Below are positions 1,303 through 54,899 of a DNA stretch of 64,000 nt, piece by piece. The stretch comes from Thermodesulfobacteriota bacterium (GTDB lineage Bacteria; Desulfobacterota_D; UBA1144; Nemesobacterales; UBA2774). Every line of letters begins with the position of its first letter. Position 1 is the first letter of the stretch. The stretch spans positions 21,286-85,285 of the forward strand of contig DAOKYU010000009.1 of assembly GCA_035325995.1 (NCBI GenBank), read 5' to 3'. Under the pieces are notes generated by a model that saw nothing but the letters and a program-made list of their open reading frames with translations, had not been told where the DNA came from and made no database searches. Position numbers and translations under genes: made by a program.

Positions 1303-2649
1303 ATGATAGTCAGTTTCTCACTCGAAAACTGGATGTCCTTCCGCAACCAGGTCACATTTTCGATGGTCGCCAGCAGGGAGCGCCAGCATGGAGACAGGGT
1401 TCCCAAGCTCGGCAAGTACCAGACGAGAGTTCTTCCGGTTGCGGCAATTTATGGCGGCAACGCGTCGGGCAAGACCAATTTTTTCAAGGCCCTGAGTTTC
1501 GCCAAGGCGCTGGTCGTCAAGGGCACCCAGCCCGACAGCCTGATTCCTGTCGAGCCGTTCCGGCTGGACGCCAAGGTGGCTGATCAGCCGTCACGGTTTG
1601 GCTTCGAGCTGCTGATCGACGAGATCATTTACGAGTTCAGCTTCGCGGTGACCCGCAAGGCGGTTCTGGAAGAGAAGCTGGTGGCCATTACCAGCACCAG
1701 TGAAAAGGTGCTCTACCACCGTCGGGACGGAAAGCCCAACTTCGATGATTCCCTGGCCAAGGACCAGTTCCTCCAGTTCGCCTTCAAAGGGACCCGGGAC
1801 AACCAACTCTTTCTGACCAACTCGGTTTCCCAGAAGGTCGACAATTTCCGGCCGGTCTACGACTGGTTCAAGGACACGCTCGAGCTGGTCGCGCCCGATT
1901 CCCGCTTCGAACCTTTCGAGCAGTTCCTCGACGAGGGGCACCCGCTCTACTCGACCATGAACGAGATGCTGCCGCAGCTCGACACCGGCATCGCGCACCT
2001 GGGTGGTGAGGAGATCCCTTTCGAGAACATTCCGCTGCCCGAGCCACTGAAGACCAAGCTGCAGGAAGACGTCAAGGAAGGCATGACCGTTCGTCTGCTG
2101 ACCGAGCCGATCAACGAGCGATTTGTGGTGACCCGCAAAGGTGGTGAACTGATCGCCAAGAAGCTGGTGACCTATCATCCGAAGGCGGACGGCACGGAAG
2201 CCAAGTTCGAGATCCGCCAGGAGTCGGACGGCTCACAGCGGGTGATCGATCTGCTGCCCGCGTTTCTTGAGCTGTCGGCCCAGGTCTCGAAGAAGGTCTA
2301 CGTGATCGACGAGGTCGACCGCAGCCTGCACACGCTGCTGACACGCAGATTGCTCGAAGCGTACCTCGCCAATTGCTCCACGGAAACCAGAACGCAGTTA
2401 CTGTTGACCACCCATGACGTGCTGCTCATGGATCAGCAACTGCTGCGCCGTGACGAGATGTGGGTAGCCGAAAGAGACGCCACCGGAGCTTCGAACCTGC
2501 TCTCTTTCAGCGAGTACAAGGATGTCCGGTACGACAAGGACATTCGCAAGAGCTACCTGCAGGGACGACTGGGTGGAATTCCCCGGATTCTGTTGGGAGG
2601 CGCTTTGACCAATCCCTGCCTCACCGAAGAAAGTGAGGGGGATAACTGA
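1303..2649 (+). CDS. AAA/ABC-type ATPase (AAA_21-like), defense-associated partner of RloB
   Basis: Walker [10 protein letters not shown] near N-terminus. ABC-type signature/D-loop region [12 protein letters not shown] and H-loop LLTTHDV. 4-bp ATGA overlap with downstream RloB-like gene. Confidence 0.7.
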
Positions 2650-3245
2650 TGCCACCGAATAGACGCAGATTCCAGAGACCCCTTGGCGAGCGTCGCTACC
2701 GCAAACTGTTCGTGATCGCGGTGGAAGGCGTGAAGACCGAGCCGCAGTATTTCGCCATCTTCAATGACCAGCAATCGGTGATCCGGGTGAACTGCCTCAA
2801 AGGCAGCCACGATAGCTCCCCGCCGCAGGTACTGAAGCGGATGGAGGACCATCTCCGGCAGGAGGAGCTGAGATCCTCCGACGAAGCCTGGCTCGTGGTG
2901 GACAAGGATCAGTGGACCGACGAACAGTTGGACCAGCTTCATGCCTGGGCTCAGGCACGCGACAATTACGGCTTCGCCCTCAGCAACCCCAAGTTCGAAT
3001 ACTGGTTGCTGCTTCATTTCGAGGACGGCACCGGCATCGCATCGTCACGGGATTGCAGCGACCGGCTGAAGCGGCATCTTCCCGGTTACGACAAGGGGAT
3101 CGACGCACGCAAGATCACCCGCGACCGAATCGATGAAGCCATCCGCCGCGGCAGGCTGCGCGACAATCCTCCTTGTGCCGACTGGCCACGAGCCCTTGGC
3201 GGCACCACGGTTTACAAGCTGGTCGAAAACATTCTCCAGGTCTGA
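2649..3245 (+). CDS. RloB-like TOPRIM-domain protein (putative nuclease partner of the ATPase)
   Basis: VIAVEGVKTEPQYF (TOPRIM Glu), WLVVDKDQW (DxD), NPKFEYWLLLHFE motif typical of the RloB/OLD-TOPRIM family. Translationally coupled to upstream ATPase. Confidence 0.65.
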   Translation: MPPNRRRFQRPLGERRYRKLFVIAVEGVKTEPQYFAIFNDQQSVIRVNCLKGSHDSSPPQVLKRMEDHLRQEELRSSDEAWLVVDKDQWTDEQLDQLHAWAQARDNYGFALSNPKFEYWLLLHFEDGTGIASSRDCSDRLKRHLPGYDKGIDARKITRDRIDEAIRRGRLRDNPPCADWPRALGGTTVYKLVENILQV

Positions 3246-4879: not shown

Positions 4880-5380
4880 GTGGCACTGAACAAACCGGAC
4901 AAAGAAACGCTGGACCGCTGGCACCGCAACGAGGGCAAGACCGAACCGCCCCGGCGCGGGCCTGGTGCGCCCGAGGGCAACCAGAACCGGCTGCGCCACG
5001 GCATCTTTGCCGACCGCTGTCTGACGCCGGAAGAGAAGGTCATGTTCGACGCGATCATTGACCGCCTCAACCAGGACTTCGAGTTCAACAAGTCCAGCGA
5101 CTTCCTGCAGGTGGAGCTGGTCGGCGTCTACTCGGTGAAGCTGGTCCGCGCCCAGATCGAAGGGAACACCGACGCCGCCGAAAAGCTCGACCGGATGATC
5201 CGCTGCCACATGAAGGATCTCAAGACCACCAAGATCGCCCGCGAGGGTGAGGAGCCGAAAGGACTGCAGACCTCTCCGGCGGAATGGGCGGCGGCGCTGC
5301 TTGAGAAGGTGGCCGAGGCCACCAACGCCCCGGGCGCGAAACCCTCCGGCCGCAAGAAACGCGGAAAGAATTGCGGATAA
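4880..5380 (+). CDS. putative terminase small subunit-like protein
   Basis: GNQNRLRHGIF motif resembling the GNxNAxKHG motif of some TerS families; basic C-terminus. Position in the genome is atypical, so this is a weak call. Confidence 0.3.
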   Translation: MALNKPDKETLDRWHRNEGKTEPPRRGPGAPEGNQNRLRHGIFADRCLTPEEKVMFDAIIDRLNQDFEFNKSSDFLQVELVGVYSVKLVRAQIEGNTDAAEKLDRMIRCHMKDLKTTKIAREGEEPKGLQTSPAEWAAALLEKVAEATNAPGAKPSGRKKRGKNCG

Positions 5381-5576
5381 CACCATGGAGGGCTTTTCCG
5401 ATGACCCCGGCACACGGCGACTTGCGGCAGACTGCTTCACCAGGAATTGCGGATAAGACGTGTTCCTTGCACTTTCGGAATCGGCATTCTCCGGCTGCCG
5501 ATCATCATTTCCACTCCTCGATTTCTTCCTGCAGCTCTCGATATCCGCTTGGCATGTGTGCGCATAAGCCGAGCCG

Positions 5577-5779
5577 CATAACCCAAGTAGATATTGGCAT
5601 GTTCGCGCCGGAGCTCTCTCACACAACCCAAGTAAATATTGGCATGTCGAGCCCCAGGCAGAACCGGCCAAGCCCCGCAAACAGCCATTCCTTCGGCAGC
5701 GGCCCTCACATAAGCCAAGCAGATATTGCCATGTGTGTTCCGCGCCTGGAGCGCACAAGCCAAGCAGTTATAGCCATGT
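5577..5779. repeat. Four 26-bp direct repeats in two pairs, each pair 45 bp apart; candidate recombinase binding sites
   Basis: Repeat consensus CA(T/C)AA(C/G)CCAAG(T/C)A(G/A)(A/T)TAT(T/A)G(G/C)CATGT, copies at 5577-5602, 5622-5647, 5709-5734 and 5754-5779. Nearby at 5555-5568 is a GTGCGCATAAGCC dif-like XerC-arm. The array lies immediately 3' of the Xer-like recombinase gene. Confidence 0.65.
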
Positions 5780-5980
5780 GCGGCCGACAGACAGCGAAGG
5801 AGAAATTACGGTCAATCGATATTTCCCGCTCCGCCCGGGAGGAAGAGACCCTCCGTCATGATCATTCATCATCGGCGGATGTGTTCTTCTGCGGGCACTG
5901 TCATTCACTGTCTTCGACACTGTCTCGGCCAACGAAAACAGGAGCAGCCGAGGCCGCTCCCATCGTCGGGTCCGGAAGGA

Positions 5981-6895
5981 TCAGAGGCGTTCGAGGGCTT
6001 CCTCGAGCTGACCGTCCACGAGGTGGGTATAGATCTGGGTGGTGGACACGTCGCGATGTCCCAAGGCCCGCTGCACCACGAGCAGGTCATTGGTCGCGCC
6101 GTAGAGGTGGGTGGCGAAGGTGTGACGCAGCCCGTGCGGCGTCAGTTCCTTTTCGATCCCGGCTTTCCGCAGCCAGTGGGCGAGCCGGTTTGCAATCTGC
6201 CGCTGGCAGAGTCTGCCGTCCCGGTTCGACAGGAACAGGGCTTCCATTTCCGGGCGGCCGTGTCGACGACGCTCGGCCAGGTAACGGCGCAGCAATGTGC
6301 GGAGGTCGGTCTTGATGAACTTGACCTGCGGCACATTCCCCTTGGCCCGCACCCGCAGATGCTTGGCGTCGAGGTCGATGTCATCCATGTCGAGCGCGGC
6401 CAGCTCGCCAAGCCTGATCCCGGTGCCCAGCAGCACCTCGATCATGGCGCGGTCGCGCAGCGCGGAGAAGTCGGTCCGTCCCTTGAGTTCCTTGAGGAGC
6501 CGTTTCTTTTCGGCGGCGGTCAGGAACACCGGCAGTTTTCTCGGCAGCCGATGCATGCGGATGGACCGGGCCGGATTGTCATCGACCACGCCCGCCTCGA
6601 CAGCCCAGGCGAAAAAGGCTCGTACCGCAGCCTTCATCCGATGGAGCGAAGCCGCCGAGCGAGGGCCGCGCTCACTCTCGATAACCACCTCGGCGGAGAA
6701 CACCTGGTCGAGGAGCCCGGCCGTGACCGCCCGGCAGACGATGCCCGGGGTCAGCTTCCCGGCCACGCGGGCCACCAGGGCGAGGTCCCGGCGGTATGCG
6801 GCTATGGTCGCAGGGGAGCGTCCTTCGGCCGACAGGCGGGCACAGAACGCCTCCGTCGCGCCCGTCAGGTCGAGGTCAGCCGTTCGGTTGCTCAT
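5981..6895 (-). CDS. tyrosine site-specific recombinase, XerC/XerD-like
   Basis: N-terminal SAM-like core-binding domain, and C-terminal catalytic motifs HGLRHTFATHL, LGHRDVSTTQIYTHL (R..HxxR..Y). Confidence 0.8.
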   Translation of the reverse strand: MSNRTADLDLTGATEAFCARLSAEGRSPATIAAYRRDLALVARVAGKLTPGIVCRAVTAGLLDQVFSAEVVIESERGPRSAASLHRMKAAVRAFFAWAVEAGVVDDNPARSIRMHRLPRKLPVFLTAAEKKRLLKELKGRTDFSALRDRAMIEVLLGTGIRLGELAALDMDDIDLDAKHLRVRAKGNVPQVKFIKTDLRTLLRRYLAERRRHGRPEMEALFLSNRDGRLCQRQIANRLAHWLRKAGIEKELTPHGLRHTFATHLYGATNDLLVVQRALGHRDVSTTQIYTHLVDGQLEEALERL

Positions 6896-7250
6896 CGCTG
6901 GACTCCTTCACCCGGCTGTGGCCCATGGGTGTGCTCTTGGGCAGAGGCAGCTCCGCGATGCGCCCCGATTCCCTGGCCCAGACCATCATCATGCGGAACA
7001 CCCGGACGGTCTTGGCGACGGTGCGCTCGGCCCGCTCCTTGCCGTCGGGGAGTTTGAGCAGCAGGTCGGACTTGTAGAACTTGCCGACCTGGGGGAGCCG
7101 GATCTCGGCGAGCTGGCGATCCGCGCCGAAGAAGGCCTCGACCACGTCGAGGTCCTTCCTGTAGGTGTAAAGGGTCCGCTCTTTCTTTCCGGATTCCCGC
7201 AGGTGGCCGATGAAAGCCTCGGCGGCTTGATGCACGGTGCATTCGGTCAT
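6876..7250 (-). CDS. stand-alone integrase N-terminal SAM-like (core-binding) domain protein
   Basis: 124 aa, different frame from the recombinase, resembles only the N-terminal domain (TLYTYRKDLDVVEAFF). Possible remnant or accessory. Confidence 0.4.
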   Translation of the reverse strand: MTECTVHQAAEAFIGHLRESGKKERTLYTYRKDLDVVEAFFGADRQLAEIRLPQVGKFYKSDLLLKLPDGKERAERTVAKTVRVFRMMMVWARESGRIAELPLPKSTPMGHSRVKESSDEQPNG

Positions 7251-7283
7251 GTCGATGTCTCCTTTGTCGGTGGCCCGGTGTGT

Positions 7284-7478
7284 TCAGGACAGGAACTCGT
7301 CCAGCTCCCGCAGCAGTTCCTCGACGTGGCCGAGGGAGCCGACGCTCGCCCAGGTGATGTCCGTCTGCTTCGCGTCCGCTTCGAGCTTGCCGCGAATGCC
7401 CTCGATCAGCCGGGTGATGTTTTCCTGCTTTTCTCGGTACGCCTTGAGTGCCTGCTGGCGGTTTCTGTCGTAGGTCAT
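7284..7478 (-). CDS. small hypothetical protein
   Basis: 64-aa ORF from internal Met upstream of the recombinase genes. Weak call. Confidence 0.2.
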   Translation of the reverse strand: MTYDRNRQQALKAYREKQENITRLIEGIRGKLEADAKQTDITWASVGSLGHVEELLRELDEFLS

Positions 7479-7618
7479 GGCCTGCCTCCGGTTCCGGTTT
7501 TCTTGGATGCGGGACCATCCCGCGTCACATCCAATGACGCTTCTATTTCGTTGGAAATCAAGTGCTTGCAGAGATCTTTCTGCATGTGCCCCAAACCCAT
7601 AAACCAAAGGAGATCAAC

Positions 7619-7891
7619 ATGTTGAAGAAGACCCTCGAATGGACCATCCCGCTGGTCCTGGCCGGGATCATGACCGGCTGCGCCACCTACCGGCCTCCGG
7701 CCCAGATCCAGTCGGCGGTGGCCACCGTCAACCGCCACACGCCCGAGTATGTGACCGAGGCCAACAAGGCGCTGCGCGAGGTCGGCCACCCGGACGCCGA
7801 GCGCCTGACCGGTGTCGGCCTGCGCCTGCAGACCGCCGTGGACGCCCTTGACCAATGGGCCAACGGCTCGAACCAGGAGGCAGGCCAATGA
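7619..7891 (+). CDS. small lipoprotein (signal peptide + lipobox)
   Basis: AAAGGAG RBS. N-terminus MLKKTLEWTIPLVLAGIMTGC matches signal peptide followed by lipobox Cys. Confidence 0.5.
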   Translation: MLKKTLEWTIPLVLAGIMTGCATYRPPAQIQSAVATVNRHTPEYVTEANKALREVGHPDAERLTGVGLRLQTAVDALDQWANGSNQEAGQ

Positions 7892-8166
7892 AAGAGATCC
7901 TTCAGGAAAACAGCGATGCCGTCCGCCAGGCCGGTGAGGCCCTGGTCGAAATCGGCACCGAGCTGGCGGCGGGACGGATCGAGAACGCCCTCGGCCGTCT
8001 GGAAGCGGCCCAGCAGCAGTACCTGGCCTGGGCGGAGTTGGACCAGGCCATCATCGACATTCAGGAAGCTGTCCACGACCGGAAGAACACCCTGGCCGTG
8101 CAGCAGATCCTGACGGAACTGGTGGGCACCATCCTCGGAAACGCCTTGAGGACAGGAATGCATTGA
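7888..8166 (+). CDS. small hypothetical phage protein
   Basis: GGAGG RBS. ATGA-coupled to lipoprotein gene and stop overlaps TerL start. Confidence 0.4.
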   Translation: MKEILQENSDAVRQAGEALVEIGTELAAGRIENALGRLEAAQQQYLAWAELDQAIIDIQEAVHDRKNTLAVQQILTELVGTILGNALRTGMH

Positions 8167-9689
8167 TGGCGGTAACCGACAAGGAGCGCAAACTCGCGGC
8201 GACCCTGAGCGATCCCGTGTTGTGGGGGCAAGCCTACCTCTACAACCGGGATGGCTCAGGCCGCGACTACTGGCCGCACCAGGTGGAGGACCTGCGCTGC
8301 CCTGCCAAGAACATCATCCACCTCGACGGCCGGGACGTGGGCAAGTCCATCGTGCTCTCGACCGACGCGCTCCATTACGCCTTCACCACCCGAGGCGGCC
8401 AGGGCCTCATCGCGGCTCCGCACCAGGGGCACCTTGATACCATCATCGAGGAGATCGAGTTCCAGCTCGACACCAACCCGGATCTGATGAACAGCATCGC
8501 CCTGACCAAGTACGGCAAGCCCAAGATCCACCGCAAACCCTACTTCCGGCTGGAGTTCACCAACGGTTCGGTGCTCTATTTCCGCCCGGCCGGGGCTTAT
8601 GGCGACGCCTTCCGGTCCCTGCACGTGAGCCGCGTCTGGGTCGATGAAGGAGCCTGGCTGACCGAGCGTGCCTGGAAGGCGCTGCGCCAGTGCCTCAAGG
8701 CCGGGGGGACGCTACGCATCTACTCCACGCCCAACGGCCTGCGCGACACCACCTATTACCGGCTCACCTCGTCGGATCAGTTCCATGTGTTCCGCTGGCC
8801 GTCCTGGCTCAATCCCCTGTGGACCGAGGAGCGCGAGGCCGAACTGCTGGAGTTCTACGGCGGCCGCGACAGCTCCGGCTGGCAACACGAGGTGGCCGGT
8901 GAACACGGCAAGCCCTCCTATGGGGCCTTCAATGTCGAGCAGTTCAACCTCTGTCGGCAGGATCTGCTGGAGTATCAGAAGATCGTCATCACCGATTCCG
9001 AGCTGCGCGACTGCGACACCGAGGAAGCGGCCCACGACCGGCTGGAGATGCTGCTCAACCTCACGCCCCGCAGCGGGCAGTTCTGGATCGGTGGCGACCT
9101 GGGCTACACCAACGACCCCACCGAGATCGTCGTATTCCAGGAGACGGAGATCGGCGAGCGGACGCTGCTGAAGATGATCCTGCGCGTGCATCTTGAACAC
9201 GTTTCCTATCCGCACATCGCCCAGATCATCGCGCTGCTGGAGCGTTACTACACCCCGGCGGGCATCGGCGTGGACAATGGCGGCAACGGTCTGGCCGTGG
9301 TTCAGGAGCTGCTCACCCTGGACAAGTACAAGGGGCTTGAGTTGGAAGGCAGGCTCAAAGGATACGATTTCGGCGGCATGACCCGGCTGGCGGTCCGCGA
9401 CGGCAAGGAAGTCAAGAAGCGCACCAAGGAGCTGATGACCAGCCTCATCAACGGAGCCCTGCAGCGCAAGCAGGTCATTTTCCCCTCGGACGACCTGGAA
9501 GTGGAAGACCAGTTCACCACCCACACCTACACCCTGCGGGACGGCAAGATCATCTATTCCAAGGGCAACGACCACATCATCGACGCGGTCCGCTGTGCCA
9601 TGCTGATCCGGGAAGAAGGCAACCTCGACCCGGTCGGCGAAGAGGTGGTTTCGCTCAAGCCCGTGCTCACCAATCCGGTCTTCATCTGA
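8166..9689 (+). CDS. terminase large subunit
   Basis: N-terminal ATPase (HLDGRDVGKS Walker-A-like). C-terminal RNaseH-like nuclease with GGDLGYTNDPTEIVVF ... DHIIDAVRCA. Position before portal. Confidence 0.75.
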   Translation: MAVTDKERKLAATLSDPVLWGQAYLYNRDGSGRDYWPHQVEDLRCPAKNIIHLDGRDVGKSIVLSTDALHYAFTTRGGQGLIAAPHQGHLDTIIEEIEFQLDTNPDLMNSIALTKYGKPKIHRKPYFRLEFTNGSVLYFRPAGAYGDAFRSLHVSRVWVDEGAWLTERAWKALRQCLKAGGTLRIYSTPNGLRDTTYYRLTSSDQFHVFRWPSWLNPLWTEEREAELLEFYGGRDSSGWQHEVAGEHGKPSYGAFNVEQFNLCRQDLLEYQKIVITDSELRDCDTEEAAHDRLEMLLNLTPRSGQFWIGGDLGYTNDPTEIVVFQETEIGERTLLKMILRVHLEHVSYPHIAQIIALLERYYTPAGIGVDNGGNGLAVVQELLTLDKYKGLELEGRLKGYDFGGMTRLAVRDGKEVKKRTKELMTSLINGALQRKQVIFPSDDLEVEDQFTTHTYTLRDGKIIYSKGNDHIIDAVRCAMLIREEGNLDPVGEEVVSLKPVLTNPVFI

Positions 9690-9764: not shown

Positions 9765-11312
9765 ATGTGCGGCTGTCATGGCCGAAACTACCGAGAGGAT
9801 CACGTGGAAAGCACTGCCCATCAGGACGACCAACCCGAAAGCCTGGACACCACCGGCTTTGTCATCGCGCCGCTGGCCGCAGCGGCCGCGCTCGACTCGG
9901 CCGCCTTCAGCAAGGTCAACGCCACCGAAGCGATTCCGGCCACCTGGGAAGAACGCGCCCGCAAGGCCTGGGAATACTACGTCGAGGAGCCGTTGGTGAA
10001 GAACTGCGTCAACTCCTGGCGCACCTTCGCCGTGGGCGACGAGATCAAGATCACCAGCGATGACGAGACCCTTAAGGAGCAGGCCCTGGAGGCCGCCTGG
10101 CGGTTGAACATCACGCAGTTCATCAAGGACATGGTTCTTCAACTCCTGGTGAAAGGCGACGCCATCGGCTTCAAGCGCTTTACCAAGTCCGGCCAGGACA
10201 TCGAGGAACTGGTCTGCGTCAACCCGGTTTCGGTCAAGGTTAAATACGCCCAGGGCGAACTGATCGAGGCCCGGCAATTTCCCGAGGACACCCCCGGCGG
10301 CGGGGAATCCATCCCGCTGCCCGTCGAGCAGGTGGTCCACCTCAAATGGGACGCACCGGCCTTCTCGCCCCGGGGTAACTCCCTCGTGCTTCCCGCTTTT
10401 CAAGCCATCGAACTGCTGCGCGACTACCGCCGGGCCGAACAGGCCATCGCCAAACGCTGGGCCACGCCGTTTCGCCTGCTCAAGGTGGGCGGCGCGTTCG
10501 GCCAGAAGATGGTGATGCCGGACCAGCGGATGCTCGAACAGGTTCGCGACATGGTCAACAAGATGGACATGAAAAGCGGCCTGGTGGTCCCGTTCTACGT
10601 CAATGTCGAAACCCACGGCACCGACGGCCAGGTCCTCAACGTCGAGGACAAGGTCAAGGAGGTGAAGGAAGACATCGTGGTGGCCCTGGGTCTGTCACGC
10701 TCGCTGGTGACCGGCGATGGCCCTAATTTCGCCACCGCCTCGGTGAGCATGCAGAAGATGATGGTCATGATCCGCGAGATCAAACAGGCCGCACGCAAGC
10801 TCCTCGACTGGGTGTTCGATGACTGGATGGAGCTGAACGGCCACGGCGACAAAAGCATCCAGTTCATCTTCAACGACCTCGACCCCAGCGACGCGGTCGA
10901 TTTCAAGAAGCTCCTCATCGAACTCTACGACCGCAAACTCATCAGCCGCTCCAGCCTTCAGCTCAAGATGGACCTGGACCCGGACATCGAGGCTGCCAAC
11001 CGCGAGACAGAACGTAAGCAGATCGACCTGATGGACGAGAAACAGGTGAAGCCGGTGGTGGATATGGTCGTCTCCGGCATCCTGAGCGTGCCTCGCGCCC
11101 GGAAGATGCTCGGGATTCCGGCCGAGGACAATGAACCCACGGCGGAGGCTGCATTGGTCTGGTCGGGCGACCTGGAGTCCACCGGCGATGCGGCCGTGTG
11201 CGACGAGTGCAGCCACTTCATCGCTGACACCAACCACTGCCGGGTCCACAACAGCGAGCGCACTTTCGACGCCCCGGCCTGTCGTTTCATCGACCGTCGG
11301 GAGCCCCGCTGA
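9765..11312 (+). CDS. portal protein
   Basis: 515-aa ORF immediately after TerL and before MuF-like head protein. Start uncertain, with alternative GTG at 9804 after a GAGAGG RBS-like hexamer (9794-9799). Confidence 0.65.
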   Translation: MCGCHGRNYREDHVESTAHQDDQPESLDTTGFVIAPLAAAAALDSAAFSKVNATEAIPATWEERARKAWEYYVEEPLVKNCVNSWRTFAVGDEIKITSDDETLKEQALEAAWRLNITQFIKDMVLQLLVKGDAIGFKRFTKSGQDIEELVCVNPVSVKVKYAQGELIEARQFPEDTPGGGESIPLPVEQVVHLKWDAPAFSPRGNSLVLPAFQAIELLRDYRRAEQAIAKRWATPFRLLKVGGAFGQKMVMPDQRMLEQVRDMVNKMDMKSGLVVPFYVNVETHGTDGQVLNVEDKVKEVKEDIVVALGLSRSLVTGDGPNFATASVSMQKMMVMIREIKQAARKLLDWVFDDWMELNGHGDKSIQFIFNDLDPSDAVDFKKLLIELYDRKLISRSSLQLKMDLDPDIEAANRETERKQIDLMDEKQVKPVVDMVVSGILSVPRARKMLGIPAEDNEPTAEAALVWSGDLESTGDAAVCDECSHFIADTNHCRVHNSERTFDAPACRFIDRREPR

Positions 11313-14300
11313 TGCCGTCGGACCTCAAGCAGCGCATCCATGCTGCCACCCTAAAGAGCCTTACGGCCCGCAACCGCTACAACGACCAGGTCACGGCCCA
11401 GCTTACCCAGGCGCTGAAACAGGCCGAAGACGAGGTCGCCCGCGCCATCCTCCAGTACCGCTCCCTCGGCTCCCTGCCGGACAACAAGCTCGCCGCCCTC
11501 AAGGGGCTGGAAAAGCTCCAGCTCGAACTCGACGACACCATGAAGCGGCTCAAACGGGAGCAGACCCTGCTCTTTCGCAAGACGACCAAGGACTCCTTCA
11601 AGCTCGGCATCCAGCAGGGAATCGGAGAGCTCGCCGACTCAGCGCTGCCGTTCTACGCCGACCTGAAGCCCGAGGGCATCGACAAGCTGGCCACCAAGGT
11701 GTTCACCATCGTCGACACCAATGCCCTCGACTTCATGGCGCAGTACAACCTCACACTCGCCGGTGACGTCCACCGCGAACTCGCAGACGGCATCAAGCGC
11801 ACCATCCTGAACGGCGTCGCCACGGGCAAGGGAGCCGACGACATCGTCCGGGATATGGGCAAGGTGATCGTCGACAAGGACTCCTTTCGCCAGGCCGGAA
11901 GCCGGGTGTTCAGCAAGGCGCAGTACCGCATGGAGATGATCGCCCGCACCGAGGTTCTCCGCGCCCACAACATGGGCAGGCTCAAGTTCCACGAGCGGGT
12001 CGGCATCCAGAAGCTGGAATGGCTGGCTATGGAGGACGAGCGCATGTGCCCGGTCTGCGGCGGCCTGGACGGCAAGACCTTTCCCATCGACAAGTTCCCC
12101 CAGCAACCCGCGCATCCGCACTGCCGCTGCACCAACATCGTGGCCTGGCCGATGACCGTCTGCGGTAGCGAGATGGCCGCCAAGGCAGCCGCCCAGGCAT
12201 CGCAGGGGGACGCATGCATTCTCCCGCCCCATGTGCTGGAAGGCATGGCCGACGCCCAGGCCAAGGAGAACGCCAAGCTCAAGAGCGCCTTTGAAAACGG
12301 CGACATCGCCGACCTCGGTTCGCTGACGGTCAAACAGCTCCAGACCCTGGCGAAACAGAACGGCGTGGCCATTGCCCGGACCAAGGCCGATTTCATCAAG
12401 ATGCTCGATCTGGCCGAACCGGGGATCGATCACGGCGACCTGGCCGGAGCGGCACTCAGCGCCAAGCTCAAGGAACACAAGATCGGCCTGCTGCGGACCA
12501 AGGAAGAACTGGTCGAGCTGCTCGGACTGAAGCAGGCGGAACTCAAACAGGCCAAGCTGCTCGCCGCCCAGTTGGCGAAGATCCCTCCCGCCGAGGGGCT
12601 GGAGGGCATGACCGCTCAGCAGCTCAAGGAGATGGCGAAGGAGAACGGTATCTCCCTCAACATGACCAAGCAGGAGACCATCGAGCTGCTGGATAAGCTG
12701 GAACCCGGCGTGGATCACAGCGGCCTGATGGGCAAGGAACTCGCGGCGGCCAAACAGAAGCACGGCATCGGCATCCTCAAGAACAAGCAGCAGCTCGTTG
12801 AGGCGCTGCAGAAGAAGGCCGGTGCCGACATGGCCGAGTCGGTCAAGAAAAAGGCAGTCGACGAGGCCAAACAAAAGCTGCTCCTGAAACAGAAAACGGC
12901 ACTCGAAGACGCCGCCAAGGCCGTGGTCGTTCCCGACACGCCGACCGGCTACAAGGATTTCCTCGACGCGATTGCCAAGGTGGAACAGGCGGTTTCCGGC
13001 GGCACAGATCTACCCCAGGATCTGCTGGCGGCCCACAGCAAGGAAATCGCCCTCAAGAAACAGCTCTTTCAGGATCAGATCGGCAAGCTGAAATCGACGG
13101 AGCTCAAGACGCTCGCCAAGGAGACCAAGGTCCAGTATTGGCAGTGGGCCAACAAAGACGAGCTGGCCACGCTCTTCACCGAGACCGATCCCGCGAAAAT
13201 CAAAGCGGTTCAGGCCAGCATCGACACCAAGCACGCAGCCTGGGCCGAAAAACATGGCGGCAAGAAGAAAACCGCACCGGCCAAGCCCGCCACGCCGAAG
13301 AAAGAGCCACCGAAACCGGCTCCGCAGCCGATCCCGGTCAAGCCGCCCGAGCCCAAGATCGGCAAGAAAGGCGCGGAGTTCGCCACCGTCGATACCGCGT
13401 GGCAGCAGAAGGGCCTGTCTTCGAAATTCAAGAAATCCGGCAAGGCCGCTGTCGGCGGCGCACACGAAAAGGAGTTCTGGACCGACGAAAACGGCGACAA
13501 ATGGCTGTTCAAGCCCATTGGCCGCAAGGATGACGAGTTCATCGCTTTCGGAGAGGAAGCCGCGTACAAGATCGGTCGCCTGATCGACCCTCATTCCATC
13601 GAGGTGCGCACCATCCAGTTGAACGGCCGCACCGGCTCCATCCAGAAATGGCGCACCGATCTGCGGGACGACTTCGATTTTCGCAACATCCTGCCCCAGG
13701 ATCTGACCACCATCGAACTGGAGCAGATCCAGCGCGAGCATGTGGTCGACTGGCTGATCGCCAACCACGACGGACACTCCAAGCAATTCATCCGCGCCCG
13801 GGACGGTCGCGTCTACGGCATCGACAAAGGCCAGGCCTTCAAGTTTCTGGGTCAGGACAAGCTCTCGCTCGACTATCACCCCAACGGCGTCTGCGGCGAG
13901 GAAGAGCCGTTTTACAACAAGGTCTTCCGGGCGGCCAAGGAAGGGAAGGTACGGGTCGATCCGAACGCGACCCTGCGCTACATCCAGGAAGTCGAAAAGA
14001 TCGCCGACGAGGATTACCTCGATCTGCTGCGGCCTTACGCCGAGGGACGGTTCGCCAAGGACCCGGCCGGGCTGCGGCATTTCTACGATCTGGCCTTGGA
14101 GCGGAAACACAATCTCCGGCGGGACTTCGAGGGTTATTACGCCGATGTGCTGGGGGATCGGGGCTTCCGTTTCGACAAGCTGAGCGCCGCCACCGGCAAG
14201 AAAAAGCTGCTCTCCTCCGCCGAAGAGACCCTGGTCGAGGAGGCCCGCAAACTCGGCTGGCAAGGCAAGACGTTGCCCTTCGACAGCGGCGACGTGGAGG

Positions 14301-15901
14301 ACCAGAACGCGCTGATCTTCACTGAGAGCTTCAAGGGGAAGAAGCGCACCGTGGTGAAGATGAAGATCCGGCCGGACACCGACCGCCGCATCGACGAGGT
14401 GCTGCGCAGGTATGTGCAGACGGCTGCCGGGGAAAAGGGACAACCGCTGGTCGAAGACAGCTTCTTTCCGACGATTCTGGACGCCGTCAAAAACGTCAAT
14501 TTCCACGTGGGCGACGGCAAGTACAACCGGACCAAGATCGACAAGGCCCTGCGCCTGCGCAAGAAACTGGAGACCCTACAAAAGAGCGCCGACCCCAAGG
14601 TCAAGGAGATGGCGGACCATTATCTGAAATGGGTCAAGGAGATCGAAGAATCCGTCGACTGGGACCGGGCCACCAACGGCGTTTTTGAGCAGTATCTGCC
14701 CAAGCTCGACGCGCAGAAACCCAAGGAGAAACCGCCGTTCAAGGTGGAACGCGGCAAGGTGACCCACACCAAGCGCAGGATCAGTTCCGGCACCATCACC
14801 GTCGAGGCCGACGACATCGACAACCGGACGCTGTTCAATCACAACTCCCGCATGCAGGACGGGCACCAGTACACCGTCACCTTCGAGGACGGCACCCGGG
14901 TCCGCTATCGCCCCTGGTCGGACACCAACCTTTATGCCCAGCGCGGAGAGCTGGAAATGATCCTGGATGGCGATGCCACCCCCGGACGGGTCGAAGCGAT
15001 GCTGGAAAAGCTCGAACAGCTCGGCATCGACACCCGGGTGGCCACGGCGGAAAACGCGGAGCAGATGTATCTCGAAAAGCTCGCCTACATCCGCAAGACC
15101 GACAAGAGCGCCGACTACAAACGACTGCAGAAATCCCTCGACGACCGCAACGCCACCACCACCGAGCGGGTCCAGGCTCTGCGCGGCTATTGGCAAAAGG
15201 AACTTGGCGTCCAGGACATCACCCAGCTTTCCGGATACAACCCGCTGGGCGAATATCAGGCGGGCTTTCTGGACCGCGACGCCAAGGGCGGATACCGGCA
15301 CCAGCTCCGGTTCGACATCACTGAGGAGGACCTGGAAAAACAGATGAAGGGCTATTCGCTGGTCCACGATCTGACCAACGGCGAGAGTATGTCCGGCTTC
15401 ATCGACTTGATCATGGAGAACAACGGAGCCATGGTCAGCACGGTCGAGAAGATGCGCATGGGCGTGGCTCCGGGCGGAATGTCCCCGGTGGCTGACATGC
15501 AGACCGGCGGCGCGAGCTATTTCTTCACCCGGATCAAGAAGCAACCGGCCAGCGACGCCTCACCGGCCCTCTATTTCAAGAAACAGATGCTGCGGCGCAT
15601 GGACGCCATCAGCTACGACCATGACGCCTACGGCAAGGTGATTGATGACTACGTGCAGCGCAACCGGGGGGCCAGCATCGACGACTGGAAGCGGTTCTCG
15701 CAGCGCCATGGCAACGAGACCATCTTCAAATACTCGGTGACGCTGCTGGACAACATCGAATTCATCGTCGCCAGAAGCGACAACGAACGCCGGGAGATCA
15801 TCCAGAGTTTCACCCGGCGCGGCATCAAGAAACTGCCCGACGGGCGCAAGGTGGAGGACATCGTCCATACCCCGCAAAGCTGGAGCAAACGCAAACAATG
15901 A
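11312..15901 (+). CDS. MuF/SPP1-gp7-family minor head protein with a ~1,100-aa C-terminal extension (HeH/Rho-N-like repeats, P/K-rich linker, atypical-kinase-like core)
   Basis: MuF motif region MCPVCGGLDG...HPHCRC. Three to four ~45-aa HeH-like repeats (LTVKQLQTLAKQNGVAIARTKADFIKML...). Linker KKKTAPAKPATPKKEPPKPAPQPIPVKPPEPK. Then WLFKPIGRK / LIANHDGHSKQF / GIDKGQAF resembling the HipA/PI3-4K catalytic core. Confidence 0.7.
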   Translation: MPSDLKQRIHAATLKSLTARNRYNDQVTAQLTQALKQAEDEVARAILQYRSLGSLPDNKLAALKGLEKLQLELDDTMKRLKREQTLLFRKTTKDSFKLGIQQGIGELADSALPFYADLKPEGIDKLATKVFTIVDTNALDFMAQYNLTLAGDVHRELADGIKRTILNGVATGKGADDIVRDMGKVIVDKDSFRQAGSRVFSKAQYRMEMIARTEVLRAHNMGRLKFHERVGIQKLEWLAMEDERMCPVCGGLDGKTFPIDKFPQQPAHPHCRCTNIVAWPMTVCGSEMAAKAAAQASQGDACILPPHVLEGMADAQAKENAKLKSAFENGDIADLGSLTVKQLQTLAKQNGVAIARTKADFIKMLDLAEPGIDHGDLAGAALSAKLKEHKIGLLRTKEELVELLGLKQAELKQAKLLAAQLAKIPPAEGLEGMTAQQLKEMAKENGISLNMTKQETIELLDKLEPGVDHSGLMGKELAAAKQKHGIGILKNKQQLVEALQKKAGADMAESVKKKAVDEAKQKLLLKQKTALEDAAKAVVVPDTPTGYKDFLDAIAKVEQAVSGGTDLPQDLLAAHSKEIALKKQLFQDQIGKLKSTELKTLAKETKVQYWQWANKDELATLFTETDPAKIKAVQASIDTKHAAWAEKHGGKKKTAPAKPATPKKEPPKPAPQPIPVKPPEPKIGKKGAEFATVDTAWQQKGLSSKFKKSGKAAVGGAHEKEFWTDENGDKWLFKPIGRKDDEFIAFGEEAAYKIGRLIDPHSIEVRTIQLNGRTGSIQKWRTDLRDDFDFRNILPQDLTTIELEQIQREHVVDWLIANHDGHSKQFIRARDGRVYGIDKGQAFKFLGQDKLSLDYHPNGVCGEEEPFYNKVFRAAKEGKVRVDPNATLRYIQEVEKIADEDYLDLLRPYAEGRFAKDPAGLRHFYDLALERKHNLRRDFEGYYADVLGDRGFRFDKLSAATGKKKLLSSAEETLVEEARKLGWQGKTLPFDSGDVEDQNALIFTESFKGKKRTVVKMKIRPDTDRRIDEVLRRYVQTAAGEKGQPLVEDSFFPTILDAVKNVNFHVGDGKYNRTKIDKALRLRKKLETLQKSADPKVKEMADHYLKWVKEIEESVDWDRATNGVFEQYLPKLDAQKPKEKPPFKVERGKVTHTKRRISSGTITVEADDIDNRTLFNHNSRMQDGHQYTVTFEDGTRVRYRPWSDTNLYAQRGELEMILDGDATPGRVEAMLEKLEQLGIDTRVATAENAEQMYLEKLAYIRKTDKSADYKRLQKSLDDRNATTTERVQALRGYWQKELGVQDITQLSGYNPLGEYQAGFLDRDAKGGYRHQLRFDITEEDLEKQMKGYSLVHDLTNGESMSGFIDLIMENNGAMVSTVEKMRMGVAPGGMSPVADMQTGGASYFFTRIKKQPASDASPALYFKKQMLRRMDAISYDHDAYGKVIDDYVQRNRGASIDDWKRFSQRHGNETIFKYSVTLLDNIEFIVARSDNERREIIQSFTRRGIKKLPDGRKVEDIVHTPQSWSKRKQ

Positions 15902-16810: not shown

Positions 16811-16863
16811 CTGAACGCTCCCCGCAGGTCGCGGAGAGCACAGCAAACTGACCGGAGACGTTG

Positions 16864-47488: not shown

Positions 47489-48448
47489 ATGAACCTGAAA
47501 GAGATCCACTACGGGATCGAGATCGAGACCGTAAAACGCACCCGGGAACAGATCGCCTGGGCCATCCACTCGGTAGTGGGCGGCACGGTCCGCCATGTCG
47601 GCATCCCCAGCAGCTATGACCCCTGGGAGGTCGAGGACCTGCGCGGCCGCGTCTGGAAGGTGGTGGGGGACGCTTCCCTGACCAGCGTCCCGGCCCATCT
47701 GCGGGCCGAGGTGGTCAGCCCGGTGCTCGGCTACGACGACATCCCTCAACTGCAGGAGGTGGTCCGGGCCATCCGCCGCGCCGGAGGCAAGATCAACAGC
47801 CAGTGCGGCATTCACATCCATATCGACGCCGCGCCCTTCGACGGCAGACACCTGGGTAACCTGGCCAAGATCATCTACAAGCAGGAGCCGCTGATCCTTC
47901 ACGCCCTCGGCATCAGCCGCGACAGGCTCAATCGCTACACCCGGCCGGTCAGCGACGAACTGATCCAGCGTATCGAACAGCATCGCCCCCGCACCAAGGA
48001 CCAGCTCAACCGCATCTGGTACGGCTACCACAACCGCCAGCCCCAGCACTACGACAACAGCCGCTACCACGGGGTCAACCTGCACAACGTCTGGTACCGG
48101 GGCACGGTGGAGTTCCGCTGGTTCGAGGCGACCCTCCATGCGGGACGGATCAAGGCTTACCTGCAATTCTGCCTCGCCGTCGCCGCCAAGGCGCTCAATG
48201 GTCGGGCAGCCTCCAGCCGCAAGCGGGACTTCGATCCTCAGAGCGCCAAGTACGACTTCCGGGTCTTCTTGCTCCACCTCGGCCTGATCGGCGACGAGTT
48301 CAAGACCGCCCGCAAGCATCTGATGACCAACATGCCGGGTGACGCCGCCTTCAAGAACGGACGGCCCAAACCGGAGGACGTCCTTCCGGACGAAACGACC
48401 ACCAATCTCACCAACGAGGCCGGGCAAGTTCCCGGCCTCACTGTTTAA
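47489..48448 (+). CDS. amidoligase (Amidoligase_2 / glutamine-synthetase-like fold)
   Basis: N-terminal YGIEIE (GxExE) motif, GIHIHID, and size ~320 aa. Confidence 0.6.
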
Positions 48449-48459
48449 GGAGGTGCCCC

Positions 48460-48981
48460 ATGAAGATTCTGATCCGCTCCACCACGCTGGACGGCGAACC
48501 GATTCCCGGCAGTGGGGAAACCATCCAGGCCGCCGACTGCCTCGAAGTTGTCGAGCTGATGCGCGGCCAGACGCCGTTTACCGCCAGCCGAGCGCCCCGG
48601 GACTACATGACCGAAGTGCTTTCCGGCATCGAAGGCGGGCCGCCCCAGCCATTGCCGGAGGAAGTAGCCGCTGCGGCCGCCGAGTTTCTCACCCGTCTGG
48701 CGCGGCACGGCCTGATCGAATTCCTGCCCGACGACAAGGCCAGCGATCCCTGGCCGGAACGCTTCCTCGAAGCTCTGGAAACGGTGCGGCTCTCCGGGCG
48801 CACCAACATGCTCGACCACCCGGAGGTGACCCGGCTGACCGCCGATATGGGCTACCCGGAGGTGGCCGAGTGGCTGGCGGACCACCGGCGCGAATACGCG
48901 GCCTTCGTCCTCGAAGGGACGAGACCGCTCGGTAAGAACTTCGGCGGCAAGGAGGACCCGGCTCCATGTGCGGACAAGTAG
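48460..48981 (+). CDS. hypothetical protein of the amidoligase operon
   Basis: Sandwiched and overlapping (16 nt) with the GATase gene. Confidence 0.4.
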   Translation: MKILIRSTTLDGEPIPGSGETIQAADCLEVVELMRGQTPFTASRAPRDYMTEVLSGIEGGPPQPLPEEVAAAAAEFLTRLARHGLIEFLPDDKASDPWPERFLEALETVRLSGRTNMLDHPEVTRLTADMGYPEVAEWLADHRREYAAFVLEGTRPLGKNFGGKEDPAPCADK

Positions 48982-49763: not shown

Positions 49764-50299
49764 ACATTGGAGACAGCGTAAAGCTGAACACAAACCCGGA
49801 AGACAGTCCCGAGACCATCCTCCGACTCTTCGTCTACGGCACCCTGAAACGGGGCTACTGGAACCATCAACGCTTCTGCGCCCAGGCCCGCAGCATCGAA
49901 CCGGCCGTGGTCTGGGGCAGACTCTATCATCTCCACGCCGGATTCCCGGCCCTCGAGGTGCCCGAAGGTCTGATCCTGGCCAGGGGCACCGCCGATCCAC
50001 TGGCCGACGCCCGCAGGCAGCAGGAGATCGACACGCCACGCTTCGGCCGCCCGACTGGGGACTGGGATCTGATCCATGGGGAACTGGTGACCTTCACCGA
50101 TCCGCAGCGCGACCTGCCGCCCATCGACCTGCTGGAAGGCTTCCGACCCGGCGGGCACAGCATGTACCAGCGGGTGATGGTGGCTTCGCTACAAGGCACA
50201 ACCGCATGTGCGGTATGGGTTTACATCATGTGTGCGCCTCAAAACGGCCACCGGGTCACCAACGACAATCAGGCCGTTTTTTGGAAAAGTCGGCACTAA
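49760..50299 (+). CDS. gamma-glutamyl cyclotransferase (GGCT/AIG2-like)
   Basis: FVYGTLKRGYWNH motif. ATGA-coupled to the GATase gene. Confidence 0.7.
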   Translation: MNIGDSVKLNTNPEDSPETILRLFVYGTLKRGYWNHQRFCAQARSIEPAVVWGRLYHLHAGFPALEVPEGLILARGTADPLADARRQQEIDTPRFGRPTGDWDLIHGELVTFTDPQRDLPPIDLLEGFRPGGHSMYQRVMVASLQGTTACAVWVYIMCAPQNGHRVTNDNQAVFWKSRH

Positions 50300-50640: not shown

Positions 50641-50649
50641 GGAGCGACC

Positions 50650-54899
<4,250 letters not shown>

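What the first reader, a model, noticed from the sequence alone, without database searches (positions are those of the whole stretch)
5540..7250. Xer-like tyrosine recombinase with paired 26-bp repeats and a dif-like arm in the middle of the phage map
Two pairs of 26-bp direct repeats with 45-bp intra-pair spacing, plus a GTGCGCATAA dif-like XerC-arm, lie just 3' of a minus-strand XerC/D-like recombinase. This recombinase is the only long minus-strand gene in the phage region. A separate ORF encodes only the integrase N-terminal domain. The location, between early genes and TerL, is not where an integrated prophage carries int/att. It could be a dimer-resolution (Cre/lox-like) system of a phage-plasmid, an attP with arm-type sites, or a nested mobile insertion.
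Basis: partly seen in the sequence, partly recalled or inferred. Interest (0 to 1): 0.55.

Follow-up and report, generated by a model that had tools for sequence, protein, structure and literature searches.

The report
Internal Xer-like recombinase module in prophage
A temperate phage that integrates with a serine integrase at its end also carries, between its two DNA-packaging genes, an intact Xer-type recombinase with a small helper-like paralog; the 26-bp repeats next to it are real, but they are an optional, variable-copy add-on and not the recombinase's conserved target.

Summary
Four ~27-nt direct repeats lie at 5577, 5622, 5709 and 5754, spaced 45/87/45 bp, and are unique in the window. 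They sit 200 bp 3' of a minus-strand operon: p64, N124 (a stand-alone core-binding domain) and Rec304 (Xer-like, catalytic residues intact). The prophage (~65 kb) has a large serine recombinase at its left end, outside the window. In 147 of 151 related loci, including complete chromosomes, Rec304 stays internal between TerS and TerL. So it is not the integrase, this is not a phage-plasmid, and it is not a recent insertion: synteny holds down to 56% Rec identity. The repeats are non-coding dyads (10-7-10) and vary from 1 to 4 copies among near-identical phages. They are absent from many clades that keep Rec and N124. GTGCGCATAA is an orphan half-site of this repeat family, not a dif site. The universally conserved elements of the spacer are a single AT-rich palindrome (5799-5827) and a duplicated TerS-end motif. 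My best guess, which is inferred, is a pac-proximal, Cre/lox-like resolution or cyclization module acting at the palindrome, with the repeats as dispensable accessory binding sites. This is a new variant of a known kind, of moderate interest.

The parts
4880..5380 (+). TerS-like gene (166 aa), convergent with the recombinase
   Evidence: Weak hits to terminase small subunit families: phrog_1889 at E=1e-4 and NF040601 at E=0.005. It keeps its position before the TerL/portal genes in all relatives. Substitutions show coding periodicity, 15/15/89 by codon phase.
5368..5383 (+). 'Copy A' motif GAATTGCGGATAACAC at the TerS 3' end
   Evidence: It is repeated at 5444 (family D11). Both copies change together between clades.
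5444..5466 (+). 'Copy B' motif GAATTGCGGATAAGACGTGTTCC, present in all clades
   Evidence: The block 5443-5488 is almost invariant among 31 distinct sequences. It is present in all clades. In L164, L040 and L053 it forms the 5' end of a 263-aa REase_MTES_1575-like ORF.
5541..5570 (+).
   Evidence: No dif-type partner arm is present.
5577..5603 (+). Dyad repeat 1 (CATAACCCAAGTAGATATTGGCATGTT)
5622..5648 (+). Dyad repeat 2
5709..5735 (+). Dyad repeat 3 (CATAAGCCAA-GCAGATA-TTGCCATGTG)
5754..5780 (+). Dyad repeat 4
5799..5827 (.). AT-rich palindrome GGAGAAATTACGGTCAATCGATATTTCCC (family consensus GGAAATTT-N10-AAATTTCC). Single copy. Candidate core site of Rec304.
   Evidence: It occurs once in the window. 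It is present in nearly all clades. Dyad symmetry is kept, with changes on both sides in 5 of 10 pairs and a covariation score of 0.18 versus 0.116, reached by 3 of 500 shuffles. That Rec304 binds here is inferred.
5855..5925 (.). Near-invariant block 'M3': GTGTTC plus three CACTGTC repeats (5896, 5906, 5918). Function unknown.
5941..5960 (-). Hairpin GGAGCAGCC-GAG-GCCGCTCC followed by a T-rich run on the minus strand: likely terminator of the Rec operon
   Evidence: Read from the sequence. The hairpin is conserved in other clades.
5981..6895 (-). Rec304, a Xer-family tyrosine recombinase with intact catalytic residues
   Evidence: Purifying selection is shown by variable sites of 135/33/49 by codon phase.
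6876..7250 (-). N124, a stand-alone core-binding-domain paralog. It overlaps the Rec304 start by 20 nt, and Rec304 has its own RBS.
   Evidence: Variable sites are 47/8/12 by codon phase.
7284..7478 (-). p64, a small helical protein and first gene of the operon. Function unknown. Not detected in some clades.
7479..7618 (.). Divergent control region between p64 and the p90-p92b-TerL genes, with a conserved (A)TCAAGT motif

Best explanation
The region is a conserved, phage-borne site-specific recombination module. It is not the phage's integrase.

The operon p64-N124-Rec304 encodes an active-looking Xer-family tyrosine recombinase and a paralog that consists only of the core-binding domain. It sits between TerS and TerL of a ~65-kb temperate myovirus-like prophage. 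The integrase of that prophage is most likely the large serine recombinase at its left end.

The convergent TerS-Rec spacer is a dense cis-acting region. Its universal elements are a duplicated TerS-end motif (copies A and B; likely packaging-related, inferred) and one AT-rich dyad (5799-5827). The dyad has roughly the half-site spacing I recall for Xer-type core sites (from memory, not tested here).

I infer that Rec304 acts at this single dyad when two copies are present, that is, in replication dimers or in the terminal redundancy of a headful started at a nearby pac site. The outcome would be resolution or circularisation of the phage genome without host recombination functions, as Cre/loxP does for P1.

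The four 27-nt repeats are a clade-specific array of 10-7-10 dyad sites with arm TGCGCATAAGCCAA. The array is non-coding, stable but expandable (1-4 copies), and dispensable. They are most likely accessory protein-binding sites of this region, comparable to the dispensable DR1/DR2 motifs of TnpI/IRS, and not the essential crossover site.

Shown here: the anatomy, conservation, non-coding nature, copy-number variation, dispensability of the repeats, internal position of the module, and the serine recombinase at the prophage end. Inferred: which protein binds which site, and the resolution or cyclisation role.
For: Recombinase and paralog:
- Rec304 has Xer-like sequence with an intact active site.
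- N124 is a stand-alone core-binding domain, kept at ~120-134 aa in the 120 hits listed of 348.
- Both genes are under purifying selection.
- Module synteny is conserved down to 56% Rec identity.

Not the integrase:
- A serine recombinase plus DUF2924 sits at the left prophage end, and the right end is near window 50184.
- 147 of 151 loci keep TerS/p92a/p256 next to Rec.

The palindrome:
- It is nearly universal, single-copy, and its symmetry is maintained by compensatory changes.

The spacer and repeats:
- The spacer is non-coding (variable sites 56/66/47 by phase) yet more conserved than synonymous sites.
- Among 52 distinct window-clade spacers, repeat copy number is 4 in 40, 3 in 1, 2 in 3 and 1 in 7. 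Junctions are unit-precise and copy-specific signatures are conserved.
- The repeats are absent in many clades, and L036 versus L150 differ in the module despite near-identical Rec and N124.
- A related 11-7-11 dyad (CATAAGAAAAT-CAACTTT-ATTGGCTTATG) occurs in the L036 clade.

Packaging and precedent:
- TerL is of the Terminase_6 (T4-like) type, with a Mu-type portal.
- The TnpI/IRS precedent for dispensable accessory direct repeats is in PMC2847244.
Against: - No experiment or read-level data show recombination at any of these sites.
- The palindrome could instead be a terminase or other protein site, or a hairpin.
- The repeats share no motif with the palindrome arms, whereas in TnpI/IRS all motifs share 9 bp.
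- The candidate site lies downstream of the recombinase gene, whereas from memory lox, IRS and res sites lie upstream.
- A phage that packages from concatemers does not obviously need dimer resolution.
- The pac site and terminal redundancy of this phage are unknown.
- A four-gamete scan shows recombination everywhere and no hotspot at the palindrome.
Confidence: 0.4

Rival explanations
1. The 27-nt repeats, perhaps together with copies A and B and block M3, are terminase recognition elements (pac or cosB-like TerS binding sites). The recombinase next to them is functionally unrelated.
For: - They lie directly after the TerS-like gene, in the only long non-coding stretch near the terminase genes.
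- From memory, repeated sites tens of bp apart are typical of lambda cosB R sites and of P1 and SPP1 pac.
- All these motifs occur only here in ~78 kb of phage DNA.
- TerL is of a headful type.
Against: - The repeats are absent in clades that keep a very similar TerS.
- Presence of the module does not follow TerS N-terminal alleles: L042 carries the module yet has an N-terminus like that of L150, which lacks it.
- The TerS assignment itself is weak.
- The units are 10-7-10 dyads, a geometry more typical of tyrosine-recombinase sites than of TerS boxes.
Confidence: 0.2
2. In this clade the repeats themselves are the crossover sites of Rec304 (a lox-like site present in several copies). The 1-4 copy variants are products of Rec304-mediated deletion.
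For: - Each unit is an imperfect 10-7-10 dyad, and the L036-type relative has a 9/11-matched 11-7-11 dyad.
- Copy-number variants have junctions inside the repeat unit.
- The arm ends in GCGCATAA, which resembles Xer-type arms (from memory).
Against: - 40 of 52 distinct spacers keep all four copies with copy-specific sequence signatures, so the array is stable.
- Close relatives with 93% and 98% identical Rec and N124 lack the module.
- Many clades lack it altogether.
- Pervasive homologous recombination in this population can explain the deletions.
- From memory, 45-bp spacing is too short for intramolecular synapsis by such enzymes.
Confidence: 0.15
3. Rec304 is a second integrase, and the spacer (palindrome or repeats) is an alternative attP, used in hosts or replicons where the serine integrase has no target.
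For: - Int and attP are usually adjacent, with attP 3' of int, as here.
- The phage occurs in very different hosts.
- From memory, dual-integrase phages exist.
Against: - No locus shows the split (attL/attR) arrangement. 147 of 151 loci are unsplit, three of the remaining four are explained otherwise, and one (L191) was not followed up.
- Rec304 has no arm-binding domain.
- No tRNA or host-like sequence is present in the spacer.
Confidence: 0.08
4. The Rec304 module is an old selfish insertion (a recombinase-borne element) that settled between TerS and TerL and has no role for the phage. The repeats are scars or its former ends.
For: - It is the only opposite-strand block in the late region.
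- The spacer is an insertion hotspot carrying Phd/Doc toxin-antitoxin cassettes and a nuclease-like ORF.
Against: - The module is present in every clade and is missing only in clearly decayed copies (L114, L180, L194).
- There is strong purifying selection on Rec304 and N124.
- No flanking duplicated ends were found. GAATTGCGGATAA is repeated only 76 bp apart, on one side.
Confidence: 0.07

Closest known systems
Cre/loxP of phage P1 (what it may work like)
   Same: A phage-encoded tyrosine recombinase that is not used for chromosomal integration. One dyad site per genome. The site is close to the packaging genes, so it could fall within the terminal redundancy (P1 biology from memory).
   Different: P1 is a plasmid prophage, whereas this phage is integrated through a serine recombinase. 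loxP is 13-8-13 and lies upstream of cre; here the candidate is about 8-10-8 and lies 3' of the gene. Cre has no core-binding-only partner. By sequence Rec304 is closer to XerC/D. Nothing here is shown experimentally.
XerC/XerD-dif chromosome dimer resolution
   Same: These are the best-scoring sequence families (TIGR02224 at 226 bits, TIGR02225 at 208 bits; PDB XerD at 9e-37), with the same catalytic residues. Both the candidate palindrome and the repeat units are dyads with half-sites about 17-18 bp apart (read), which from memory is roughly the dif spacing.
   Different: Scores are below the equivalog cut-offs (335 and 330 bits). There is one full recombinase plus a paralog without a catalytic domain, instead of two recombinases. 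There is no dif-like site. It is phage-borne, and no FtsK link is known.
TnpI/IRS of Tn4430 (core IR1-IR2 plus dispensable accessory direct repeats DR1 and DR2; PMC2847244)
   Same: A small tyrosine recombinase without an arm-binding domain. A dyad core with directly repeated, dispensable sites beside it. Toxin-antitoxin cassettes also gather next to Tn3-family res sites (title of PMC7157771; paper not read).
   Different: In the IRS all four motifs share a 9-bp sequence, whereas here the repeats and the palindrome share none. The IRS is 116 bp and lies upstream of tnpI. Binding of Rec304 to the repeats is untested.
Lambda-type Int/attP with arm-type sites
   Same: Direct repeats lie next to the 3' end of a tyrosine recombinase gene.
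   Different: There is no arm-binding N-domain. The phage is never split at this place in lysogens. A serine recombinase sits at the prophage end.
Terminase recognition regions (lambda cosB R sites, P1 and SPP1 pac)
   Same: Several repeated sites in a non-coding stretch beside the small terminase gene.
   Different: The repeats are dyads, are absent in close relatives, and do not follow TerS alleles.

Membership tests
XerC/XerD (bona fide chromosome dimer resolvases) | Score above the equivalog cut-off of TIGR02224 or TIGR02225 | tested here: not met
   226 bits against a cut-off of 335, and 208 bits against 330.
XerC/XerD (bona fide chromosome dimer resolvases) | Tyrosine recombinase fold with SAM-like core-binding domain and the R-K-H-R-H/W-Y active site | tested here: met
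   Pfam PF02899 plus PF00589. The alignment to XerD 1a0p shows all motifs.
XerC/XerD (bona fide chromosome dimer resolvases) | Acts at a 28-bp dif site with XerC and XerD arms around a 6-bp centre | tested here: not met
   No match to GCGCATAA-N6-TTATGNNAA with up to 3 mismatches in 64 kb. GTGCGCATAA is followed by GCCGAG and then CCGCATAA in direct orientation.
Lambda-type phage integrase with attP | N-terminal arm-binding domain in addition to the core-binding and catalytic domains | tested here: not met
   In the 304-aa protein the SAM-like domain starts at residue 16.
Lambda-type phage integrase with attP | In lysogens the prophage is split at attP, so int lies at a prophage end | tested here: not met
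   147 of 151 loci, including complete chromosomes, keep TerS-spacer-Rec intact. The prophage ends are a serine recombinase on the left and about window 50184 on the right.
Cre/lox-like single-site resolution or cyclisation system | One dyad-symmetric recombination site per genome next to the recombinase gene | tested here: inconclusive
   A single conserved palindrome lies at 5799-5827, but binding and cleavage are untested.
Cre/lox-like single-site resolution or cyclisation system | Recombination between two directly repeated copies of the site (dimer or terminal redundancy) | not testable with these tools
   This needs in vitro or in vivo assays, or read-level data.
Phage-plasmid | Prophage maintained as an extrachromosomal replicon, with partition and plasmid replication genes | tested here: not met
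   The element is embedded in a 788-kb contig and in chromosomes of 3.25 and 7.3 Mb. No partition genes were seen in the gene calls.
TnpI/IRS-type resolution site | Core and accessory motifs share one recognition sequence bound by the same recombinase | tested here: not met
   There is no motif common to the repeats and the palindrome arms. GATATT occurs in only some copies and is lost from the palindrome in the 93% subclade.
TnpI/IRS-type resolution site | Accessory direct repeats are dispensable | tested here: met
   Relatives with 1-4 copies, and relatives with none, keep Rec and N124.
CRISPR or mini-array | Near-identical repeats separated by unrelated spacers of about 30 nt | tested here: not met
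   The copies are 78-89% alike. The 18-nt linkers of the two pairs are themselves homologous (45-nt family D2).
Protein-coding repeat | Three-base periodicity of substitutions | tested here: not met
   Variable sites are 29/20/27 in the repeat region and 56/66/47 in the whole spacer, against 15/15/89 in TerS.

The most novel reading that the evidence does not exclude
Rec304 works only together with N124, a paralog reduced to the core-binding domain, on asymmetric dyad sites. This would be a 'half-catalytic' Xer-like machine. Placed just inside the packaging start, it would circularise or resolve the phage genome without any host factor, which would help a phage that is found nearly unchanged in hosts of different phyla. 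The expandable array of 27-nt dyads would tune or buffer this reaction.
Probability: 0.1. Interest if true: 0.75.

Novelty: new variant of a known kind. Interest (0 to 1): 0.45.

Why it matters
If the model holds, this is a Cre/lox-like system from an uncultivated, very widespread phage family. It would have an unusual two-protein make-up (a full recombinase plus a paralog with only the core-binding domain) and a short AT-rich target. That bears on how temperate phages with serine integrases handle genome topology. It could also yield a new host-independent recombination tool. The finding additionally shows that direct repeats next to a recombinase gene cannot be assumed to be its att or arm sites: here they are optional.

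Tried and rejected
- Coding repeats. All indels (45, 87, 132, 177, 75, 66 bp) are multiples of three, and an ORF runs through the spacer (5371-6315; a small ORF starts in copy B in the L036 clade). Rejected, because substitutions show no codon periodicity.\n- Known RNA. Rfam gave only chance-level hits. Folding z-scores were modest, -2.1 and -2.7, and are explained by the inverted half-site.\n- Promoters and terminators. There are no sigma-70-like promoters in 5200-7700. Sigma-54 and ECF patterns read by eye did not fit.\n- dif site. No match.\n- Defence system. There are no PADLOC hits for Rec304, N124, p64, p90, p92b or TerS.\n- Operator of an early regulator. None of the motifs occurs elsewhere in ~78 kb of phage DNA.\n- Link between the repeats and TerS alleles. 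None found.\n- Recombination hotspot at the palindrome. The four-gamete test gave Rm = 86 across 190 informative sites, spread evenly, so it is not informative.\n- Contigs ending in the spacer as evidence for genome ends. The end points are inconsistent and partly reflect trimming at gene boundaries.\n- Candidate split loci. L165 and L168 are toxin-antitoxin insertions, L181 is a rearranged remnant with an IS-like ORF, and in L191 unrelated sequence follows Rec directly and was not followed up. L114 is a random deletion from 5920 to 8399 in a decayed copy. L182 is not a hybrid.\n- Literature. Searches for this phage, or for a core-binding-only partner protein, found nothing relevant.\n- GenBank phages. 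There is no DNA relative. The closest TerL is 28% and the closest Rec 37% identical.
Full report
**What is there**

The stretch 5381-5980 is a 600-bp spacer between two convergent genes. On the left is a TerS-like gene (4880-5380, plus strand). On the right is a minus-strand operon of three genes: p64 (7284-7478), N124 (6876-7250) and Rec304 (5981-6895).

Four direct copies of a ~27-nt unit lie at 5577, 5622, 5709 and 5754, spaced 45/87/45 bp. A degenerate 26-mer finds exactly these four sites in 64 kb, with none in 100 shuffles. A partial or inverted element lies at 5541-5558.

**The proteins**

- Rec304 carries Phage_int_SAM_1 and Phage_integrase domains.
- It scores best with the XerC, XerD and XerA models of NCBIfam, all below their cut-offs.
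- Its best solved relative is E. coli XerD (9e-37). The alignment shows the Arg, Lys, His-x-x-Arg, His and Tyr motifs in place.
- N124 is 25% identical to the first 120 residues of Rec304.
- A database search for N124 gave 348 hits. The 120 listed are ~98-211 aa, nearly all 119-134 aa, so N124 is not a gene fragment.
- The AlphaFold model of N124 (pLDDT 88) matches only core-binding domains of tyrosine recombinases.
- Both genes show the codon-phase pattern of purifying selection: variable sites of 135/33/49 for Rec304 and 47/8/12 for N124.
- None of the proteins matches a defence-system model.

**The element around it**

Gene calls on the source contig (an ENA metagenome assembly, 788 kb) show a myovirus-like prophage. 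Upstream are a primase and helicase. Downstream are TerL, a Mu-type portal, a 1529-aa MuF-domain protein, sheath, tube, baseplate and fibre genes.

Walking left in related IMG/VR contigs gave the following gene order (right to left from the primase):
- ERCC4, DUF669, AAA_24 and a PD-(D/E)XK nuclease;
- a sigma-like protein and a LexA-like repressor;
- at the end, DUF2924 and a 528-aa large serine recombinase with Resolvase, Recombinase and Zn_ribbon_recom domains.

On the right, similarity between relatives stops at about window 50184. The prophage is therefore about 65 kb. Its likely integrase is the serine recombinase, and Rec304 lies about 21 kb inside.

**Is Rec304 ever at an end?**

Scans of viral and genome collections gave over 200 loci. 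The order p256-p92a-TerS-spacer-Rec-N124-p64-(p90-p92b)-TerL-portal holds down to 56% Rec identity.

Of 151 loci with at least 2.5 kb beyond Rec, 147 have TerS, p92a or p256 next to it. The four others are:
- two toxin-antitoxin insertions (L165, L168);
- one rearranged remnant (L181);
- one locus (L191) where unrelated sequence follows Rec directly, not followed up.

Several of these loci are in complete chromosomes or Mb-sized contigs. This rules out attP at this place, a phage-plasmid lifestyle, and a recent nested insertion.

**The repeats**

- Copy number. Among 52 distinct spacers of the window's clade, 40 have four copies, one has three, three have two and seven have one. The junctions fall inside the unit, and each of the four positions keeps its own sequence signature.
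- Not coding. All length differences are multiples of three and an ORF spans the spacer, so I tested for coding. Substitutions show no codon periodicity (56/66/47), whereas TerS gives 15/15/89. The spacer is non-coding, yet it is more conserved than synonymous sites.
- Dyad structure. Each unit is an imperfect 10-7-10 dyad (CATAAGCCAA-GCAGATA-TTGCCATGTG).
- A related module. Part of the 72% clade (L036 type) has a related module with a 9/11-matched 11-7-11 dyad (CATAAGAAAAT-CAACTTT-ATTGGCTTATG) and further GCGCATAA motifs. It lies on the other side of the palindrome described below.
TGCGCATAAGCC at 5559 is an orphan arm of this family. No dif-type partner exists.
- Absent in relatives. The module is missing in L150/151, L148/166, L156/158, L160, L169/171/177, L172 and L058. 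L150 lacks it although its Rec and N124 are 93% and 98% identical to those of L036.
- No link to TerS. Presence of the module does not follow TerS N-terminal alleles either.

The repeats are therefore optional.

**What is universal in the spacer**

1. A motif at the TerS 3' end (copy A, 5368-5383) is repeated 76 bp downstream (copy B, 5444-5466). The two copies change together between clades.
2. One AT-rich palindrome (5799-5827 here; family consensus GGAAATTT-N10-AAATTTCC) is single-copy in the window and present in nearly all clades. Across 15 clade representatives, 83% of arm positions are complementary. Five of ten pairs show changes on both sides, for example GGAAGGATT/AATCCTTCC in L172. 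The covariation score is 0.18 against 0.116 in shuffles, reached by 3 of 500 shuffles, and the slid controls score lower.
3. In many clades a near-invariant block holds three CACTGTC repeats (5855-5925).
4. A hairpin serves as the likely terminator of the Rec operon (5941-5960).

None of these motifs occurs elsewhere in ~78 kb of phage DNA. The spacer is also an insertion hotspot. Phd/Doc cassettes and a nuclease-like ORF sit on either side of the palindrome in various relatives.

**How it most likely works (inferred)**

A recombinase kept in every clade should have a target kept in every clade. The single palindrome next to the gene is the best candidate.

A single site per genome fits a reaction that happens only when two copies meet. 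That occurs in replication dimers, or in the terminal redundancy of a headful started at a nearby pac site. The TerL is of the Terminase_6 type, and copies A and B overlap the TerS end. This is the logic of Cre/loxP in P1 (from memory).

The 27-nt dyads would then be accessory binding sites. TnpI/IRS offers a precedent, where DR1 and DR2 are dispensable and give selectivity (PMC2847244). However, the repeats and the palindrome share no motif, so that comparison fails one defining test. Which protein binds the repeats is open.

I put 0.4 on this overall model. The rivals are:
- terminase recognition sites, 0.2;
- the repeats as the real crossover sites, 0.15;
- a second integrase, 0.08;
- an old selfish insertion, 0.07.

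**Comparison and novelty**

No GenBank phage record is close. There is no DNA match, and the closest TerL is at most 28% and the closest Rec at most 37% identical. Literature searches found no description of this phage or of a core-binding-only partner.

By sequence Rec304 is Xer-like but is not a XerC or XerD equivalog. By position and inferred logic it resembles Cre/lox. The stand-alone core-binding paralog is the unusual part. I rate it a new variant of a known kind, with interest 0.45.

**Limits**

There is no binding, cleavage or read-level evidence. The TerS assignment is weak. A recombination scan was uninformative, because homologous exchange is pervasive.

Noticed in passing
whole phage part of the window (1-50184); loci L131-L149: The same prophage occurs at 92-96% nucleotide identity (most at 95-96%) over 9-17 kb in isolates of different classes and phyla. 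These are Desulfofustis, Desulforhopalus, Desulfobulbus (two copies), Desulfocarbo, Desulfosarcina alkanivorans PL12, Syntrophus buswellii DM-2 and the gammaproteobacterium Ectothiorhodospira shaposhnikovii DSM 243. It also occurs in MAGs labelled Verrucomicrobiota, Planctomycetota and Hydrogenedentales. This is an unusually broad distribution for a temperate phage.
   Followed up: partly
outside the window, about 15-19 kb left of it; L208:431-3019: The left prophage end carries a 150-aa ORF, a 528-aa large serine recombinase and a DUF2924 protein, followed by a LexA-like repressor. This is the likely integration module.
   Followed up: yes
window 5368-5383 and 5444-5466: The TerS 3'-end motif is duplicated 76 bp downstream, and both copies co-vary between clades. 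In the window clade TerS stops inside copy A (..KNCG*), whereas other clades read through it (..SSDNT..). A +1 frame would end with the same NCG* at copy B. Possibly a packaging signal. Unexplained.
   Followed up: partly
window 5855-5925: The block with GTGTTC and three CACTGTC repeats is almost invariant among 31 distinct sequences, although synonymous sites nearby vary at about 50%. It is present in several distant clades. Function unknown.
   Followed up: partly
L164:600-2530; L157, L163, L165, L168, L040, L053 spacers: The TerS-Rec spacer is an insertion hotspot. Phd/Doc-type toxin-antitoxin pairs and a 263-aa REase_MTES_1575-like ORF that begins in copy B are inserted on either side of the palindrome in different relatives.
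   Followed up: partly
window 50437-62063: A low-GC (45-50%) defence island lies just right of the prophage end. It holds an HTH_17 protein, a small AAA protein, a 1245-aa BrxC/PglY-like protein, a 948-aa N6_N4 methylase, an AAA_15 protein with a weakly DUF4435-like protein, and a 620-aa AAA_15 protein. One relative (L225) shares this flank up to window 54490 while lacking most of the phage.
   Followed up: partly
window 1303-3245: An AAA_21/AAA_15 ATPase (448 aa) and an RloB-like protein (198 aa) sit inside the phage between the primase and the late genes. This pair is present in only some relatives. It looks like a phage-carried abortive-infection-like pair.
   Followed up: no
window 11312-15901 and 16861-19260: There is a 1529-aa protein with a Mu F domain and a 798-aa protein with a D12-class methyltransferase domain in the head region.
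   Followed up: no
window 47489-50299: An Amidoligase_2, DUF5049, GATase_6 and GGACT gene set lies at the right end of the prophage. The similarity between relatives ends inside or at the last of these genes.
   Followed up: no
window 4880-7250 compared with 30 relatives: The four-gamete test gives at least 86 recombination events across 190 informative sites in 2.4 kb. Homologous exchange within this phage population is pervasive.
   Followed up: partly
L181:1-7000 (Acidobacteriota MAG): Rec is followed by copy B, copy A, a methylase fragment, an IS-like ORF and then the serine-recombinase block, in the opposite relative orientation to the usual map. Probably a rearranged remnant.
   Followed up: partly
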